From a phage, in the NCBI GenBank assembly GCA_024614665.1, contig GCA_024614665.1_4861.1: a stretch of 64,000 bases of DNA. One strand, given 5' to 3'. The position numbers and the translations under genes are program-made. Shown one piece after another: positions 11,165 to 54,885 of this stretch. Position 1 is the first letter of the stretch, and the number at the start of each line of letters is the position of its first letter. The notes below the pieces were generated by a model. That model searched no databases. It had not been told where the DNA came from and saw only the letters and a program-made list of their open reading frames with translations.

Positions 11165-11179
11165 AGATAATATCTATCT
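11165..11179 (-). promoter_or_regulatory. promoter-like 15-bp element, type A (plus strand AGATAATATCTATCT)
   Basis: Exact 15-mer shared by 5 sites; about 40 nt upstream of ATG 11125. Confidence 0.5.
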
Positions 11180-11969: not shown

Positions 11970-11984
11970 AGATAATATCTATCT
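11970..11984 (-). promoter_or_regulatory. promoter-like 15-bp element, type A
   Basis: Exact copy AGATAATATCTATCT immediately downstream (minus sense) of a terminator and 41 nt upstream of ATG 11929. Confidence 0.5.
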
Positions 11985-18428: not shown

Positions 18429-18458
18429 CAAAAAATAATACCACCCGTAGGTGGTATT
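18429..18458 (-). terminator. intrinsic terminator (minus strand)
   Basis: Stem aataccacc/ggtggtatt with CGTA loop, then plus-strand A-tract. Confidence 0.5.
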
Positions 18459-18470
18459 AAATTAGCTATA

Positions 18471-18659
18471 CTACTTCTTCCCGAGTTCCCCACGGAACTT
18501 CGCCAGCTCTTCTTTCCAGTCCGGCTTCGGTAGTGCGCTTTTCGGCCCCACGATAAACGTACGTTCTGAGGTTTGCGGATTCACCTCTACCGTTTCGTTA
18601 TCTTCCACTTCGCGAAGCATGATTCCGTTTTTACCATCGTAATTAACTAAAACACCCAT
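18471..18659 (-). CDS. hypothetical small protein (62 aa)
   Basis: ORF track; start overlaps stop of upstream gene. Confidence 0.35.
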   Translation of the reverse strand: MGVLVNYDGKNGIMLREVEDNETVEVNPQTSERTFIVGPKSALPKPDWKEELAKFRGELGKK

Positions 18660-18841
18660 TAGTAAATCTCCTGCTGCATTGGAAATACATTACCTGTCGG
18701 TGAGACAAGTAAAACTTGCGCGGTAACGTGAACGATTTCTTCTTCGTCCTGACGACGAACACTGTTAGTGAGATTATCCCACTCACGTTTAACACGCGGG
18801 TGAGATAAGAACTCGGCAAACTGCGCATCAGAAAAGTCCAT
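18659..18841 (-). CDS. hypothetical small protein (about 60 aa)
   Basis: Track ORF 18659..18859; ATG at 18841 overlaps the stop of the upstream small gene (TAATG). Confidence 0.35.
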   Translation of the reverse strand: MDFSDAQFAEFLSHPRVKREWDNLTNSVRRQDEEEIVHVTAQVLLVSPTGNVFPMQQEIY

Positions 18842-18984
18842 TAGCCGCGACCTGTACACATGGCAACAGAGTTACCGTTATCGATGCACTTATTGTAATC
18901 TTGAGTTACAGTGATAGACAGTACCGCGAAAGCAACAACAGCAACGATGGCAAAGATGGCACGTTTATGGTTACGAGTTAACAT
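18841..18984 (-). CDS. small predicted membrane protein (47 aa: MLTRNHKRAIFAIVAVVAFAVLSITVTQDYNKCIDNGNSVAMCTGRG)
   Basis: ATG preceded by AAGGAG at ideal spacing; one hydrophobic helix; first gene after promoter-like element type B; below ORF-track cut-off. Confidence 0.4.
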   Translation of the reverse strand: MLTRNHKRAIFAIVAVVAFAVLSITVTQDYNKCIDNGNSVAMCTGRG

Positions 18985-19041
18985 GGCAATACTCCTTTAG
19001 ATTAATAGTCGATTGAGTTGATAGATTGTCTTCTATCACCT

Positions 19042-19056
19042 AGGTAATATATATCT
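19042..19056 (-). promoter_or_regulatory. promoter-like 15-bp element, type B (plus strand AGGTAATATATATCT; within 26-bp exact repeat 19036-19061)
   Basis: 26-mer identical to 27539-27564; 13/15 match to type A on the coding strand; 58 nt upstream of ATG 18984. Confidence 0.5.
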
Positions 19057-19080
19057 GAAATTATTTTTATTCAGAGTACA

Positions 19081-19132
19081 CCCTCTATAACGCTCTCAAA
19101 CGCGTTTTGAGAGCTTTTATCACTATAGAGGG
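19081..19132. other. nested inverted repeats (candidate structured RNA or protein-binding site)
   Basis: Outer arms ccctctata/tatagaggg enclose inner hairpin gctctcaaa-cgcgt-tttgagagc; lies in a 242-bp intergenic region. Confidence 0.35.
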
Positions 19133-19180
19133 TCGTTCTACCGTTAGAGTGGCTTTAGAAGGTTGTGAGTGCGTTTAGAG
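19124..19180. repeat. four direct repeats of TAGAG-like half-sites (T[T/A]AGA[G/A])
   Basis: tatagaggg / ttagagtgg / ttagaaggt / ttagagggc at about 19126, 19145, 19156, 19176. Confidence 0.3.
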
Positions 19181-19181
19181 G

Positions 19182-19219
19182 GCTAAAATAAAGAGACCTG
19201 GTCTCACAAGGAGACCAGG
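19182..19219 (-). terminator. intrinsic terminator (minus strand)
   Basis: Stem cctggtctc/gagaccagg preceded on plus strand by A-rich tract; follows stop of gene 19227..20024. Confidence 0.55.
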
Positions 19220-19226
19220 CACACAT

Positions 19227-20024
19227 TTACATCAAATCCAGGCTCTGTGAGACCGCAACTTCCGGTTCACTGATGCCGCTGGTCACTGACAATGTAAAGC
19301 GACGATCGTTAATCACTTCAACTGCTTCGCTCGCACGCAGTGAATACTTGTCGGCGATTGGCAGTACACTGTTATCGTTCTGCGGCGGCAGAATCTGTGC
19401 CGGGAACGGAATGTACGAGTTGAAAGTGATATACGGACCGACTTGCATCATCGGGAACACTTCGTTCACGTTATTCGACATCCCTTCATCCGAAGAGATA
19501 ACGGAGTGACGCAGACAGGCACGCAGGCCAACGGTGTACTCCGGATCGCGCGATTCGCCGATCAGTGCGAAACGGAACACATTGAAATCGTAGTCGTCTG
19601 CAGCGAAGTGCTCTGGCAGGATACGCTGTACGTATTCAGGGTAAGTGGTCACGTCACCCGGAATAACATTCACGGCGAGTTTCTGTGCCAGGAAATACGC
19701 ATTCGCGAAACCGTACTGACCCGCCAGCGCAGCTGAAATCGGTGCAGTGGTTACGCAGTGCAGGAACAAGTGATAACCCAGCCCGCCTTTATCTTCGATT
19801 GCCAGGTCCTTCTTACTCTGCACACCGTCAGCAGTATAAATAACTGCCACTGTCTTATCCAACGTCGATGCCATGACAAAATCCAACTGCACCTCACCGC
19901 TCTGCGGTAGTACCTTAACCAGGCGATCCCAGAGCTTGGTCGGTTTGGTGAAGTTAGCGGCTTCGTACGCATCAATGTCGAGAACAGTTTGGCCGGTCAT
20001 GCGAAAGGTGTGAATCGCTTTCAT
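19227..20024 (-). CDS. hypothetical protein (265 aa)
   Basis: ORF track. Confidence 0.55.
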   Translation of the reverse strand: MKAIHTFRMTGQTVLDIDAYEAANFTKPTKLWDRLVKVLPQSGEVQLDFVMASTLDKTVAVIYTADGVQSKKDLAIEDKGGLGYHLFLHCVTTAPISAALAGQYGFANAYFLAQKLAVNVIPGDVTTYPEYVQRILPEHFAADDYDFNVFRFALIGESRDPEYTVGLRACLRHSVISSDEGMSNNVNEVFPMMQVGPYITFNSYIPFPAQILPPQNDNSVLPIADKYSLRASEAVEVINDRRFTLSVTSGISEPEVAVSQSLDLM

Positions 20025-24832: not shown

Positions 24833-25162
24833 TTAGTGGGCCAGCCAAGCCAGCTGCCACTTCTTACATTTTATTCCGCTGTGTCCAACCGGATTGCGGA
24901 TAATGTCCATCGTTTGCCCGACAACGAATTCAATCATCTTGTCTGATAACCTTTTACCCATCGCGATAGAGAGGGCTGTAACTTGATCAGGGTCATCGAT
25001 GTTCGCATAGACCGGCTCATTACTGCCGAAGATAAGATAGAAGGAACCCTCGCACGCCACGATTGAGGTCAGTGGCACGATACACCCGGTATACTCTCTC
25101 GCCAGTTCAGCCGCATTTGGGGTTACTTCCATTACGTAACCTTTAACAGATTTCTTTTCCAC
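24833..25162 (-). CDS. hypothetical protein (109 aa)
   Basis: ORF track; immediately downstream of DHFR gene. Confidence 0.45.
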   Translation of the reverse strand: MEKKSVKGYVMEVTPNAAELAREYTGCIVPLTSIVACEGSFYLIFGSNEPVYANIDDPDQVTALSIAMGKRLSDKMIEFVVGQTMDIIRNPVGHSGIKCKKWQLAWLAH

Positions 25163-26676: not shown

Positions 26677-26734
26677 TATAAATACTCCTTAAGATTAATG
26701 GTCGATTACATACGGTTTCAGGCTAACGTAATAT

Positions 26735-27496: not shown

Positions 27497-27544
27497 ATTC
27501 CTTAAGTGATAGTCGGTTAAAAGATTACCAATGCAATCTCACCT

Positions 27545-27559
27545 AGGTAATATATATCT
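27545..27559 (-). promoter_or_regulatory. promoter-like 15-bp element, type B (within 26-bp exact repeat 27539-27564)
   Basis: Identical 26-mer to 19036-19061; sits between an upstream terminator and ATG 27496. Confidence 0.5.
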
Positions 27560-27579
27560 GAAATCTTTTCTAATCTGAG

Positions 27580-32968: not shown

Positions 32969-34231
32969 ATGATGAGTAACGAGACCGATAAGAACGATCC
33001 GGGGTATGACCCGAATACCGACTACGACAATTCGTATCAAAACCCGAATAATATCGATGCAGTACCATCGGTCGCCGACTACTTTGACCGTCGACTGTCC
33101 GATGCGAAACCCACCACGGCGTACAACGTTAATGATGAGTTATCGGGTTGGAATGACCGTATCCGTCTTACGTTAGGTTTGGGTCTGGCTGCGCAGCGTG
33201 TGACCAACCCCTACATGGGGTTCAACCATATGATGGCGTCGAACCCGACGCCTGTTAACCGTGAGTACGGTGGCCTAACCTTCATTACCCGCCCTGACTT
33301 CAACTTGTGCTTTGACAACATTGCCAACTCGCGCAAGATGTCGAACATGGCTTCTCAGCCGAAATCGTCACTCGACTATTCCATTCTGGCAGCGTTAGAC
33401 CCAGATTTTGAATTGGGGTTCTCTGATTCACCGATGGAAGATGGGCGAAGAAAGAACCGTTTGGGCACGCCATTCATGAAGGACATTATGTTTGACAATC
33501 TTCAGGCATTCATACCATTGCTGAGTACGCAGATGCTGAGCCTCTCGGGGATGCCTGACCAGTCTGTCGATAACTGGATGTCTGAAGAAGGTTTAATGCG
33601 CGAACAGTGGGGTATGGTTGACTCCACACATGAAATCAATAACCAGTACAGCATGTCAATGTCGCTGAACAACCCATACGGCAACCCCATCATGCGAATG
33701 ATGGGCGTGTGGCTGGAATATATGTCCGGCATTAAGATGGGTAAGTTCAAACCGAAGATGCGTAATTCCATCCAGCGTCGCATTGACTACCAGTCGAGGA
33801 TGTACGGGTTTAAATACGATGCGCTCGGAAACATCACTCGTTTCTGGACAGCGTGTGTTTGTTGGCCAATGAACGATAACGCCGGTCAAATGGCGAATGT
33901 CGATAACACCAAGCCTCAATTAAATGACGACACCACAATTAACCTCAACTGGCAATGCATCGGGGCGCGCTTCGATGACCCATTGTACATGGAGATGTTC
34001 AACTTGACGGTGTCTATGTTTAACCCGGATATGATGCCGCAACCAGGGAGCGTTGCAGCGGGCAACTTTATCCCGATTGCTGAAGACCAGCTTGTGCCGA
34101 TTGCACCACAGCTACTACCGCTGTTCAACTACTACGGCTATCCGCACATCGACTCCCTGCGTCGTAAACTGACCTGGTATGTTTATCAGGCAGATTACCA
34201 ATTCATCCTTAAACGAGCGGGCTTACTGTAA
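32969..34231 (+). CDS. hypothetical protein (about 420 aa)
   Basis: ORF track; tandem ATGs 32969/32972 with GGAG RBS; stop overlaps next start (TAATG). Confidence 0.55.
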   Translation: MMSNETDKNDPGYDPNTDYDNSYQNPNNIDAVPSVADYFDRRLSDAKPTTAYNVNDELSGWNDRIRLTLGLGLAAQRVTNPYMGFNHMMASNPTPVNREYGGLTFITRPDFNLCFDNIANSRKMSNMASQPKSSLDYSILAALDPDFELGFSDSPMEDGRRKNRLGTPFMKDIMFDNLQAFIPLLSTQMLSLSGMPDQSVDNWMSEEGLMREQWGMVDSTHEINNQYSMSMSLNNPYGNPIMRMMGVWLEYMSGIKMGKFKPKMRNSIQRRIDYQSRMYGFKYDALGNITRFWTACVCWPMNDNAGQMANVDNTKPQLNDDTTINLNWQCIGARFDDPLYMEMFNLTVSMFNPDMMPQPGSVAAGNFIPIAEDQLVPIAPQLLPLFNYYGYPHIDSLRRKLTWYVYQADYQFILKRAGLL

Positions 34232-54870: not shown

Positions 54871-54885
54871 AGATAATATCTATCT
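54871..54885 (-). promoter_or_regulatory. promoter-like 15-bp element, type A
   Basis: Exact AGATAATATCTATCT 31 nt upstream of the beta-like gene ATG (54840); also 22 nt upstream of divergent plus gene 54907. Confidence 0.5.

What the first reader, a model, noticed from the sequence alone, without database searches (positions are those of the whole stretch)
18985..19226. Unusually long (242 bp) structured intergenic region: promoter-like element, nested inverted repeats and TAGAG direct repeats
In a genome where most gaps are under 60 bp, this region contains, in order, a terminator (19182-19219), four TAGAG-like direct repeats spaced 11-20 bp (19124-19180), a nested inverted repeat (19081-19132) and a type B promoter-like element (19042-19056) before the first gene of a three-gene small-protein operon. 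Iteron-like direct repeats next to a promoter suggest a regulatory hub or a small structured RNA; an origin-like element is also possible.
Basis: partly seen in the sequence, partly recalled or inferred. Interest (0 to 1): 0.5.

Follow-up and report, generated by a model that had tools for sequence, protein, structure and literature searches.

The report
Terminator, repeat array, early promoter junction
This long gap in a giant Salmonella phage genome is an operon junction, with a terminator, a conserved early promoter and a short leader hairpin; between them sits an array of a 10-base repeat that also occurs, nearly unchanged, in unrelated phages and in IncX plasmids, and whose function is unknown.

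Summary
The window is an SPN3US-like jumbo phage, and genes here read on the minus strand. The 242-bp gap (18985-19226) is real and is the second-longest gap in the window.

What the gap holds:
- **Terminator (19185-19220).** An intrinsic terminator with compensatory changes across eight relatives.
- **Promoter (19036-19061).** An invariant block, TTTCAGATATATATTACCTAGGTGA. It belongs to a promoter family with 7 copies in the window against 0.02 expected.
- **Leader.** A stem-loop that changes sequence but not position, then a conserved leader and ribosome-binding site, three small genes and a closing terminator.
- **Repeats.** The "TAGAG repeats" and the "nested inverted repeat" are one thing: about seven copies, three of them degenerate, of a roughly 10-nt unit, GCGTTWNAGAG, in both orientations.

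The hairpin is not conserved, but the tandem repeat is conserved in four related genera. Near-identical triple arrays also occur in T5-like and FelixO1-like phages, other large enterobacterial phages and more than 1,200 mostly IncX-type plasmids. In bacterial chromosomes the pattern occurs only at chance level.

No small RNA is supported. My best reading is a helically phased, curved protein-binding platform next to the promoter; that part is inferred. An origin-type role is not excluded.

The parts
19227..20024 (-). Upstream gene, the last of a virion-gene cluster. It is the homolog of SPN3US ACQ60_gp201 (original gp65), 265 aa.
   Evidence: The ORF is listed. It is 100% identical to the SPN3US protein. 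It matches PHROG 8163, function unknown.
19185..19220 (-). Intrinsic terminator: stem-loop GCCTGGTCTC-CTTGT-GAGACCAGGT (19220..19196) followed by CTCTTTATTTT.
   Evidence: Found by the terminator scan. Across 8 phages, 98.8% of cells pair and 4 of 10 pairs show compensatory changes; 0 of 500 shuffles reach this.
19171..19182 (+). Repeat unit R1, GCGTTTAGAGGG, in reverse orientation relative to the genes. It directly abuts the terminator T-run.
   Evidence: (family D2/D3). The same terminator-plus-unit arrangement occurs at SPN3US position 137.57 kb.
19151..19162 (+). Repeat unit R2, GGCTTTAGAAGG, a degenerate copy.
   Evidence: (D2).
19141..19152 (+). Repeat unit R3, CCGTTAGAGTGG, a degenerate copy.
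   Evidence: It scores 9.2 bits with a position weight matrix built only from arrays outside the SPN3US group.
19121..19132 (+). Repeat unit R4, CACTATAGAGGG, a degenerate copy. It forms the outer right arm of the inverted repeat.
   Evidence: I2. SPN3US has T instead of A at 19125, which breaks the outer stem.
19102..19114 (+). Repeat unit R5, GCGTTTTGAGAGC. It forms the inner arm of the inverted repeat.
   Evidence: (D3, I1).
19092..19103 (-). Repeat unit F1, GCGTTTGAGAGC, in gene-sense orientation.
   Evidence: It scores 14.6 bits with the independent matrix. It is conserved in orthologous gaps.
19081..19093 (-). Repeat unit F2, GCGTTATAGAGGG, in gene-sense orientation. It is the last unit of the array.
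   Evidence: It scores 14.8 bits. It is identical in ChrisDB, and Caitlin has GCGTTTTAGAGGG at the same place.
19080..19133 (.). Nested inverted repeat. It is a by-product of oppositely oriented repeat units (R4/F2 and R5/F1), not a conserved structure.
   Evidence: Arms; fold; pair counts across relatives.
19036..19061 (-). Early-type promoter block ATTTCAGATATATATTACCTAGGTGA ("type B"). It lies in the most AT-rich stretch of the region.
   Evidence: There are 6 strict copies in SPN3US and a second copy in the window at 27539-27564. It is invariant in Erskinevirus, Machinavirus and Derbicusvirus orthologs. The wider family has 7 copies against 0.02 expected. GC is 22.5% at 19040-19079.
19020..19037 (-). 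5' leader stem-loop GATAGA-AGACAA-TCTATC, immediately after the promoter block.
   Evidence: A hairpin is predicted at about the same place (offset 0-4 nt) in all 14 promoter copies; it is marginal in two (Huxley -1.2 kcal/mol, ChrisDB z -0.74), and the stem sequences differ.
18988..19014 (-). Conserved leader block AATCGACTATTAATCTAAAGGAGTATT, including the Shine-Dalgarno sequence AAGGAG (18993-18998).
   Evidence: It is repeated behind other promoter copies: SPN3US 94280-94306 and 57148-57172, and window 26681-26707.
18471..18984 (-). Three small genes of 47, 60 and 62 aa (SPN3US gp66-gp68): 18841-18984, 18659-18841 and 18471-18659.
   Evidence: They have no Pfam family, and their PHROGs (8574, 14868, 16804) have unknown function. 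The trio is kept downstream of the gap in the Seoulvirus, Erskinevirus and Wellingtonvirus relatives; the Machinavirus phages keep a 138-144-nt homolog but differ in the following genes.
18436..18459 (-). Intrinsic terminator that closes the three-gene operon: TAATACCACC-TACG-GGTGGTATTA followed by TTTTTTGCC.

Best explanation
The gap is the junction between a virion-gene operon and a small early operon of an SPN3US-like, phiKZ-related jumbo phage.

**Shown or well supported.** Reading in gene sense:
- The upstream transcript ends at a conserved intrinsic terminator.
- The three small genes are driven by a member of the phage's AT-rich early promoter family. By analogy with phiKZ, this family is recognised by the virion RNA polymerase.
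- The transcript starts with a conserved 5' stem-loop and a conserved leader with a ribosome-binding site.

**Inferred.**
- Between terminator and promoter lies an array of about seven GCGTTWNAGAG units, three of them degenerate. Five point towards the terminator and two towards the promoter.
- If transcription starts 7-10 nt past TATATTAC, the promoter-facing units end about 45 bp upstream of the start.
- I read this array as a double-stranded DNA element. Units repeated at the helical period (10 bp) form an intrinsically curved platform, and all sites lie on one face.
- An as yet unidentified sequence-specific protein, phage-encoded or host-encoded, would bind cooperatively and bend or wrap the DNA.
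- At this locus that would tune or shut off the adjacent early promoter, or insulate the two operons from each other.
- The same module is reused in other non-coding hubs of phages and plasmids.

The palindrome is only a consequence of two units facing each other.
For: **Identity.** The window is 99% identical to SPN3US, SEGD1 and Proteus phage 7.

**Terminator.** The scan finds it, and it shows compensatory changes across relatives.

**Promoter.**
- The block is invariant across five genera, and there are 6 strict copies in SPN3US.
- The wider family has 7 copies in the window against 0.02 expected, all in gene sense.
- A sister "type A" copy lies 45 nt upstream of an RNA polymerase beta-subunit gene.
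- This fits published descriptions of jumbo-phage early promoters: an AT-rich, highly conserved element of about 10 nt near -10 (PMC7598289), with a T-rich part upstream (PMC8244752).

**Leader.** A hairpin follows all 14 promoter copies (marginal in two), with different sequences.

**Array.**
- The units are statistically clustered.
- F1 and F2 score 14.6 and 14.8 bits with a matrix built from unrelated phages.
- A tandem triple with a 10-bp period is kept after the gp65 homolog in Seoulvirus, Erskinevirus, Machinavirus and Wellingtonvirus, while the flanking spacer diverges.
- In the phage collection, 268 records match at E<0.1. In IMG/VR there are 46 exact pattern matches, nearly all with a third unit in register, and 37 of 43 are intergenic.
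- In plasmids, 1,225 records match.
- In 596 Gbp of bacterial genomes there are 67 matches against about 69 expected.
- A wedge-model calculation places 19090-19115 and 19170 in the top 1% of the window for predicted curvature.
Against: - No binding protein has been identified. The small downstream proteins have no recognisable DNA-binding domain.
- Only this one of the six type-B promoters in SPN3US has the array, so it is not a general promoter component.
- At SPN3US 137.57 kb the array is followed by a terminator, not a promoter.
- In SNUABM_29 and SPAsTU a gene sits between the array and the promoter.
- Derbicusvirus relatives lack the array at this junction.
- The curvature prediction uses parameters recalled from memory, and any 10-bp tandem repeat scores high in such a model.
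- The early timing and the transcription start site are inferred by analogy; no SPN3US transcriptome was found.
- Three of the seven units are degenerate.
Confidence: 0.55

Rival explanations
1. The array is part of a replication origin or priming element. The repeats act as iterons for an initiator. The 22%-GC promoter region next to them serves as the unwinding element, and transcription from the promoter activates or primes the origin, as at T4 or T7 origins and lambda ori. SPN3US would then have two or three such sites.
For: - The layout is repeats, then an AT-rich tract, then a promoter, and the DnaB-like helicase gene lies 2.7 kb away.
- Related arrays lie beside origin features: DnaA-box clusters in T5-like phages (bioRxiv 10.1101/866236), and 0.9-1.4 kb from the rep gene, iterons, DnaA boxes and a pBR322-like primosome site in IncX plasmids.
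- They also lie inside the large non-coding regions of FelixO1-like phages and of SPN3US itself, which also carries an extreme AT-rich palindrome.
- The pattern is restricted to mobile elements.
Against: - There is no DnaA box in the finding region, and no initiator gene was identified.
- GC skew shows no inflection.
- In SNUABM_29 and SPAsTU the array is separated from the AT-rich promoter by a gene.
- T5 origins are reported near the genome centre, not in the terminal repeat.
- In other phages the array sits 12-26 nt before a start codon.
Confidence: 0.15
2. The array is a recombination linker or boundary sequence of mobile gene cassettes. As a short conserved non-coding module it would promote the exchange or insertion of accessory genes, comparable to the promoter-stem-loop cassettes of T4-type phages. 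Its wide distribution would then reflect horizontal spread rather than a shared binding factor.
For: - The genes immediately downstream of the array differ between genera, while the array, the promoter and the gp66-68 trio persist.
- One lineage has a gene inserted exactly between the array and the promoter.
- SPFM2 carries a 27-nt duplication of the promoter core.
- Downstream genes are unrelated across array-bearing elements.
- T5 repeat regions flank poorly conserved ORFs.
Against: - Recombination alone does not explain the strict 10-bp phasing, the conserved unit sequence or the variable copy number and orientation.
- Nor does it explain the preservation of near-identical 25-mers across unrelated families, compared with divergent flanks.
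Confidence: 0.12
3. The region encodes a small structured RNA or a structured UTR element built on the 54-nt nested hairpin, or on the repeated motif as an RNA-protein binding site.
For: - The gap folds better than shuffles on both strands (z = -3.7 and -3.5).
- The hairpin is perfect in this phage.
- At SPN3US 137.57 kb the array would lie in a 3' UTR.
- In some phages it lies within 12-26 nt of a start codon.
Against: - There is no Rfam match.
- Much of the folding signal comes from the terminator and the leader hairpin.
- The nested hairpin is not maintained in relatives, and it is weakened in SPN3US and SPFM2.
- The region lies after a terminator and before the promoter, so no identified transcript covers it.
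- The units occur in both orientations.
Confidence: 0.05
4. The array is a promoter, or promoter-proximal element, for a second polymerase form such as the non-virion RNA polymerase. That would give the operon tandem middle or late and early promoters.
For: - In SNUABM_29 and SPAsTU the array lies directly before the Shine-Dalgarno sequence and ATG of a gene that has no other recognisable promoter after the terminator.
- In several metagenomic phages the array is 12-26 nt from a start codon.
Against: - Only three loci in the 240-kb SPN3US genome carry the motif, far too few for a promoter class.
- The same array occurs in phages and plasmids that use host RNA polymerase.
- One copy points into a terminator.
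Confidence: 0.05

Closest known systems
Early (virion RNA polymerase) promoters of phiKZ-related jumbo phages
   Same: - A highly conserved AT-rich element of about 10 nt around -10, with a T/A-rich stretch upstream.
- Several near-identical copies in front of operons of small proteins of unknown function.
- Independence from host sigma-70 consensus (PMC7598289, PMC8244752, PMC11512511).
   Different: - The SPN3US-group consensus (AGATAKATATTAYYT, then TAGGTGA) was derived here from sequence only; no start site or timing has been measured.
- Every type-B copy is followed by a 5' stem-loop and a conserved leader.
Operator and architectural arrays of tandem ~10-bp direct repeats, such as P2 Cox boxes, Xis binding sites, plasmid R1 parC repeats, MetJ metboxes and omega-protein heptads (from my own knowledge)
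   Same: - Short units repeated at about one helical turn.
- Variable copy number and mixed orientations.
- A position next to promoters.
- Predicted bending.
   Different: - No cognate protein is known.
- The unit sequence GCGTTWNAGAG matches none of these.
- The same array is shared by unrelated phages and plasmids.
Iterons of plasmid and phage replication origins, such as the lambda O sites and the R6K and IncX iterons
   Same: - Clustered direct and inverted repeats beside an AT-rich tract and a promoter.
- In IncX plasmids and T5-like phages the array lies in origin-type or DnaA-box-rich non-coding DNA.
   Different: - The units are 10 nt rather than 17-22 nt.
- They are distinct from the actual IncX iterons on the same plasmids.
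- There is no initiator gene and no DnaA box at this locus.
Untranslated repeat regions of the T5 first-step-transfer DNA (Davison, bioRxiv 10.1101/866236)
   Same: - T5-like phages carry the same triple array twice per terminal repeat.
- It lies in non-coding regions described as more conserved than the surrounding ORFs.
   Different: - The sections of that paper I read describe DnaA boxes, palindromes and larger repeats, and they do not name this decamer array.
- SPN3US-like phages are not known to use two-step injection.
Promoter-early-stem-loop cassettes of T4-type phages (from my own knowledge)
   Same: A conserved early promoter plus a stem-loop, repeated at the boundaries of variable small-gene cassettes.
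   Different: - The promoter type and polymerase are different.
- The stem-loop here lies in the 5' leader.
- No T4-type sequence similarity was tested.

Membership tests
Intrinsic (Rho-independent) terminator | A G+C-rich stem-loop directly followed by a T-run, downstream of a stop codon | tested here: met
   A 10-pair stem with 6 GC pairs, followed by CTCTTTATTTT, starts 7 nt after the stop codon.
Intrinsic (Rho-independent) terminator | The structure is conserved through compensatory changes | tested here: met
   98.8% of cells pair and 4 pairs change on both sides; 0 of 500 shuffles reach the covariation score.
Jumbo-phage early (virion RNA polymerase) promoter | A highly conserved AT-rich element of about 10 nt present in multiple copies upstream of operons | tested here: met
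   There are 7 copies in the window against 0.02 expected, 13 in SPN3US, and the block is invariant across genera.
Jumbo-phage early (virion RNA polymerase) promoter | A transcription start about 7-10 nt downstream, active early and independent of host RNA polymerase | not testable with these tools
   No SPN3US transcriptome was found in the paper library.
Replication-origin iterons | Three or more repeats beside an AT-rich unwinding region | tested here: met
   Seven units at 19081-19182, and GC of 22.5% at 19040-19079.
Replication-origin iterons | A cognate initiator gene or DnaA boxes at the locus | tested here: not met
   There is no TTWTNCACA in the gap. The flanking proteins have no Rep-like or other recognisable domain.
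Replication-origin iterons | Replication initiates there | not testable with these tools
   GC skew follows gene orientation only.
Structured small RNA or cis-regulatory RNA | A match to a described RNA family | tested here: not met
   Zero matches at the gathering threshold; only chance-level hits (E of 0.9 or more) with the permissive search.
Structured small RNA or cis-regulatory RNA | A secondary structure supported by covariation in relatives | tested here: not met
   69.9% of cells pair, against 66.4% in shuffles. Many pairs are broken in other genera.
Tandem decamer array GCGTTWNAGA (element defined here) | Two or more adjacent units with a 10-bp period, ending in AGAGG(G)TAT-like sequence | tested here: met
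   F1 and F2 (19081-19103) match the pattern used for the collection scans; SPN3US is recovered as L100. Matrix scores are 14.6 and 14.8 bits.
Tandem decamer array GCGTTWNAGA (element defined here) | Located in non-coding DNA of a mobile element | tested here: met
   The locus is intergenic here. 37 of 43 metagenomic instances are intergenic. Matches in cellular chromosomes are at chance level.
Intrinsically curved DNA | Helically phased bending elements that give anomalous curvature | tested here: inconclusive
   The wedge model puts the array in the top 1% of the window. However, the parameters were recalled from memory, and any 10-bp repeat scores high. A gel assay is needed.

The most novel reading that the evidence does not exclude
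The GCGTTWNAGA decamer array is a previously unrecognised cis-acting DNA module. It is shared by virulent enterobacterial phages of at least four unrelated lineages (SPN3US-like jumbo phages, T5-like, FelixO1-like and ~140-150-kb myoviruses) and by IncX-type plasmids, and it is absent from host chromosomes. One common factor, most plausibly a host protein exploited only by mobile elements, would read it. It would act in DNA establishment or replication, for example origin or priming activity or architecture at the first DNA to enter the cell. In SPN3US-like phages it would mark the still unknown replication start sites.
Probability: 0.25. Interest if true: 0.8.

Novelty: new variant of a known kind. 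Interest (0 to 1): 0.6.

Why it matters
**For SPN3US-type phages.**
- The analysis gives a concrete, testable map of one early transcription unit: promoter, leader hairpin, ribosome-binding site, three genes and two terminators.
- It also gives a sequence definition of the early promoter family, which has not been mapped experimentally in this group.

**More broadly.**
- The repeat array is a compact 30-40-bp element.
- It is conserved almost base for base between jumbo phages, T5-like phages (inside the enigmatic first-step-transfer repeat regions), FelixO1-like phages and IncX plasmids.
- It is no more frequent than chance in 596 Gbp of cellular genomes.

A shared, mobile-element-specific cis element implies a shared reader or a shared physical role.

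Tried and rejected
- **Known RNA.** Rfam at the gathering threshold on the whole window, permissive scans of the gap and of an IncX region and a tRNA scan all gave nothing.
- **Conserved hairpin.** Rejected by pair counts across relatives.
- **Small hairpin TCTGAA-N10-TTCAGA upstream of the promoter.** It is not conserved in relatives and is simply the A/T-rich upstream promoter part.
- **Sigma-70 promoter in the gap.** None was found.
- **GC skew as an origin marker.** Uninformative.
- **DnaA boxes.** None in the gap.
- **The motif as a general promoter.** It occurs at only three loci in SPN3US.
- **A host chromosomal regulatory site.** The pattern is at chance level in species-representative genomes.
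- **Literature search for the motif string.** It returned only guide-RNA scaffold noise, and no paper contained GCGTTACAGAGCG.
- **The IncX array as part of the oriT long inverted repeats.** I first assumed this from published plasmid descriptions. A self-comparison of a complete plasmid rejected it: the inverted repeats are at 24961-25052 and 33197-33288, and the array is at about 27.8 kb.
- **A shared downstream gene, as in an autoregulated module.** Downstream proteins are unrelated between lineages.
- **DNA-binding domains in gp66-68 and their neighbours.** None was found.
- **Known binding-site consensus sequences.** By eye I compared the unit with Fis, IHF, OmpR, PhoP, CpxR, ArcA, Tus-Ter, KorA/KorB, lambda boxA and lambda O sites. 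None fitted consistently. This comparison rests on memory and is not a computed test.
- **T5 nick sites.** I could not retrieve a consensus sequence.
Full report
**Identity and orientation.** The window is an SPN3US-like jumbo phage (Seoulvirus). The 1.7 kb around the finding is 99.2-99.5% identical to SPN3US, SEGD1 and Proteus phage 7. The window is the reverse complement of the SPN3US record, so the local genes read on the window's minus strand. The gap lies between the SPN3US gp65 homolog (19227-20024) and the 47-aa gp66 homolog (18841-18984).

**Checking the observation.**
- The gap is 242 bp. In the SPN3US annotation covering the window, about three quarters of junctions are 60 bp or less, and only the 332-bp gap after the major head protein gene is longer.
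- The terminator is real: a 10-pair stem at 19220..19196 followed by CTCTTTATTTT.
- The TAGAG cluster is the densest in the window. Four TAGA[GA] fall within 60 nt (1% of dinucleotide shuffles reach this), and three copies of T[TA]TAGA[GA]GG fall within 110 nt (0 of 200 shuffles).
- The nested inverted repeat has arms 19080-19089/19124-19133 and 19089-19100/19106-19117.
- The promoter-like element at 19042-19056 is AGATATATATTACCT.

**The promoter.**
- A 26-nt block, ATTTCAGATATATATTACCTAGGTGA, recurs six times in SPN3US and a second time in the window at 27539-27564.
- The wider family AGATAKATATTAYYT has seven copies in the window, all in gene sense, against 0.02 expected. The "type A" variant is AGATAGATATTATCT.
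- In SPN3US one type A copy lies 45 nt upstream of an RNA polymerase beta-subunit gene.
- The block is invariant in the orthologous gap of Erskinevirus, Machinavirus and Derbicusvirus phages, whose flanking protein is only 40-58% identical. Wellington carries a hybrid form.
- This matches published descriptions of early promoters of RNA-polymerase-encoding jumbo phages: a highly conserved AT-rich element of about 10 nt near -10, with a T-rich part upstream, read by the virion polymerase (PMC7598289; PMC8244752; PMC11512511).
- Timing and start site are inferred. I found no SPN3US transcriptome.

**Leader and operon.**
- A hairpin is predicted at about the same place behind all 14 promoter copies examined (8 orthologs and 6 SPN3US copies). 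It is marginal in two, and the stems have different sequences.
- A conserved leader with the ribosome-binding site, AATCGACTATTAATCTAAAGGAG, follows and is also repeated elsewhere.
- The three small genes (47, 60 and 62 aa) have no Pfam family, and their PHROGs have unknown function.
- A terminator at 18436-18459 closes the unit.

**The upstream terminator.** Across eight relatives, 98.8% of cells pair. Four of the ten pairs change on both sides.

**The repeats and the palindrome are one motif.**
- Read in gene sense, the sequence between terminator and promoter is CCCTCTAAACGC ... CCTTCTAAAGCC ... CCACTCTAACGG ... CCCTCTATAGTG ... GCTCTCAAAACGC | GCGTTTGAGA | GCGTTATAGAGGG.
- This is five units in one orientation followed by two in the other.
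- The unit is about 10 nt, GCGTTWNAGAG(GG).
- The two perfect stems arise because oppositely oriented units face each other.

**The tandem arrangement is conserved; the hairpin is not.**
- In the orthologous gaps of other genera the left inner arm is a direct copy instead of an inverted one:
  - ChrisDB: GCGCTTAGAGA|GCGTCTGAGG|GCGTTATAGAGGG
  - Caitlin: CCCGTAGAGA|GCGTTATAGA|GCGTTTTAGAGGG
  - Asesino: CGCTTAGAAC|GCGTTACAGC|GCGTTTGAGA|GCGTTTTTAGGGGG
- Only 69.9% of cells of the window's structure pair across relatives, against 66% in shuffles.
- SPN3US and SPFM2 themselves carry mismatches in the stems.
- No Rfam family matches.
- A structured RNA is therefore not supported.

**Distribution inside SPN3US.**
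- The motif clusters at only three loci: this gap, the gap between two convergent genes at 137.55 kb, and the 1.7-kb non-coding region at the record ends.
- The 137.55-kb copy reads AACGCTTTTAGAGA|GCGTTACAGA|GCGTTTTAGAGGG and is followed by a bidirectional terminator.
- Only one of the six type-B promoters has the array, so it is neither a general promoter part nor a promoter class.
- Derbicusvirus relatives lack it at this junction.
- In SNUABM_29 and SPAsTU a 131-134-aa gene lies between the array and the promoter (hit H71).

**The element reaches far beyond this phage group.**
- *Phage collection.* A 42-nt consensus finds 268 phage records at E<0.1. They are mostly T5-like Demerecviridae, FelixO1-like phages and their relatives, ~140-150-kb myoviruses of Cronobacter, Klebsiella and Pantoea, and other jumbo phages. 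Almost all matches lie in unannotated DNA.
- *Examples*:
  - SuperGirl has AAAAACGCTTAGAGAGCGTTACAGAGCGTTTTAGACC in a ~900-bp non-coding region with three DnaA boxes.
  - EscoHU1 has the array at the end of the left terminal repeat, just before a palindrome and DnaA-like boxes.
  - Radambza has (AGAGCGTTTT)x3 inside a 1.7-kb non-coding region.
- *T5-like phages.* They carry two copies per terminal repeat. These lie in the untranslated repeat regions that Davison describes as more conserved than the neighbouring ORFs.
- *Plasmids.* The same array is in 1,225 plasmid records, mostly from Escherichia and Salmonella. In the three plasmids I inspected (one typed IncX1 by PLSDB; the other two carry IncX-type backbone genes) it lies 0.9-1.4 kb upstream of the rep gene. 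That is beyond the iterons, DnaA boxes and a pBR322-like primosome site, and just before a toxin-antitoxin module.
- *Chromosomes.* The degenerate pattern GCGWTWNAGMGCGTTWNAGAG carries 34 bits. It occurs 67 times in 596 Gbp of species-representative bacterial and archaeal genomes. The hits are scattered over all phyla, and about 69 are expected by chance.
- *IMG/VR.* The pattern occurs 46 times, nearly all with a further unit in register. By a crude ORF criterion, 37 of 43 are intergenic.
- *Downstream genes.* They are unrelated between lineages.

The array is thus specific to mobile elements, chiefly those of Enterobacterales.

**Mechanism.** The strict 10-bp period, the variable copy number and the mixed orientation are the hallmarks of DNA-level recognition on one helix face.
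- A wedge-model calculation places the array among the top 1% most curved segments of the window, comparable to phased A-tracts.
- Two caveats apply: the parameters were recalled from memory, and any helically phased repeat scores high in such a model.
- I therefore favour a curved, cooperative protein-binding platform. At this locus it would modulate or insulate the adjacent early promoter.
- An origin or priming role is the main rival, because of the company the array keeps in plasmids and T5-like phages. However, this locus has no DnaA box, no identified initiator and no informative skew.
- A role as a recombination linker fits the gene turnover seen right after the array, but it does not explain the phasing.

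**What is shown and what is inferred.**
- Shown:
  - the coordinates, statistics and conservation of the terminator, promoter family, leader hairpin and repeat array;
  - the non-conservation of the palindrome;
  - the cross-replicon distribution and the chance-level frequency in chromosomes.
- Inferred:
  - early timing and recognition by the virion polymerase;
  - protein binding and bending by the array, and any regulatory or replication role.

**Verdict.** The junction itself is ordinary for this phage family. The embedded repeat array belongs to a widespread element, restricted to mobile elements, for which I found no description. That is the part worth following up.

Noticed in passing
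window 11165-11179, 11970-11984, 54871-54885, 58614-58628, 60030-60044 (all minus strand): There are five exact copies of a sister promoter motif, AGATAGATATTATCT ("type A"). Two lie in the long gap after the major head protein gene. In SPN3US one copy lies 45 nt upstream of an RNA polymerase beta-subunit gene.
   Followed up: partly
window 27539-27564 and 26681-26707: There is a second type-B promoter copy, and the conserved leader block recurs about 840 nt further along the same strand. Neither has the repeat array upstream; the promoter directly follows a terminator T-run.
   Followed up: partly
SPN3US NC_027402 239882-240413 plus 1-1186 (outside the window; loci L008 and L004): This 1.7-kb non-coding region spans the record ends. 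It contains an extreme AT-rich palindromic block (positions 101-215) flanked by GCGCGTG-rich repeats, and several GCGTT-array-like units (240045-240075 and 240165-240275). It is a possible origin or packaging region.
   Followed up: no
SPN3US 137542-137580 (locus L006, about 2542-2580): A perfect triple array lies between two convergent genes and is immediately followed by a bidirectional terminator. The unit next to the T/A-run mirrors the arrangement at window 19171-19195.
   Followed up: partly
L019 (Salmonella phage SPFM2), orthologous gap: A 27-nt tandem duplication (GATATATATTACCTAGGTGATAGAAGA) gives two promoter cores in a row.
   Followed up: no
L009 3449-3844 and L010 3449-3853 (pEa_SNUABM_29, SPAsTU): A 131-134-aa gene, annotated as "putative DNA ligase" in SPAsTU, is inserted exactly between the repeat array and the type-B promoter. 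The last repeat unit overlaps its Shine-Dalgarno sequence, and there is no recognisable promoter of its own.
   Followed up: partly
L022 80-1780 (Escherichia phage radambza, FelixO1-like): A 1.7-kb non-coding region is packed with dozens of CTTAACA / CTAACAAG-type short repeats in addition to the (AGAGCGTTTT)x3 array. Only two short stretches are annotated as repeat_region.
   Followed up: no
L138 27215-27270; also L023 about 520-600 and L024 about 2800-2880 (IncX plasmids): A stretch close to the pBR322 sequence I recall as the primosome-assembly region (TTCCGCTTCCTCGCTCACT.ACTCGCT...GGCTGCGGCGAGCGG) lies between the iterons and DnaA boxes and the repeat arrays. In L023 the array-containing ~190-bp unit is tandemly repeated four times.
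   Followed up: no
window 19140-19199: There is a strong local strand asymmetry: GC skew is +0.55 on the plus strand, so the gene-sense strand is C-rich and G-poor right after the terminator. This follows from the repeat orientation and superficially resembles a Rho-utilisation tract.
   Followed up: no
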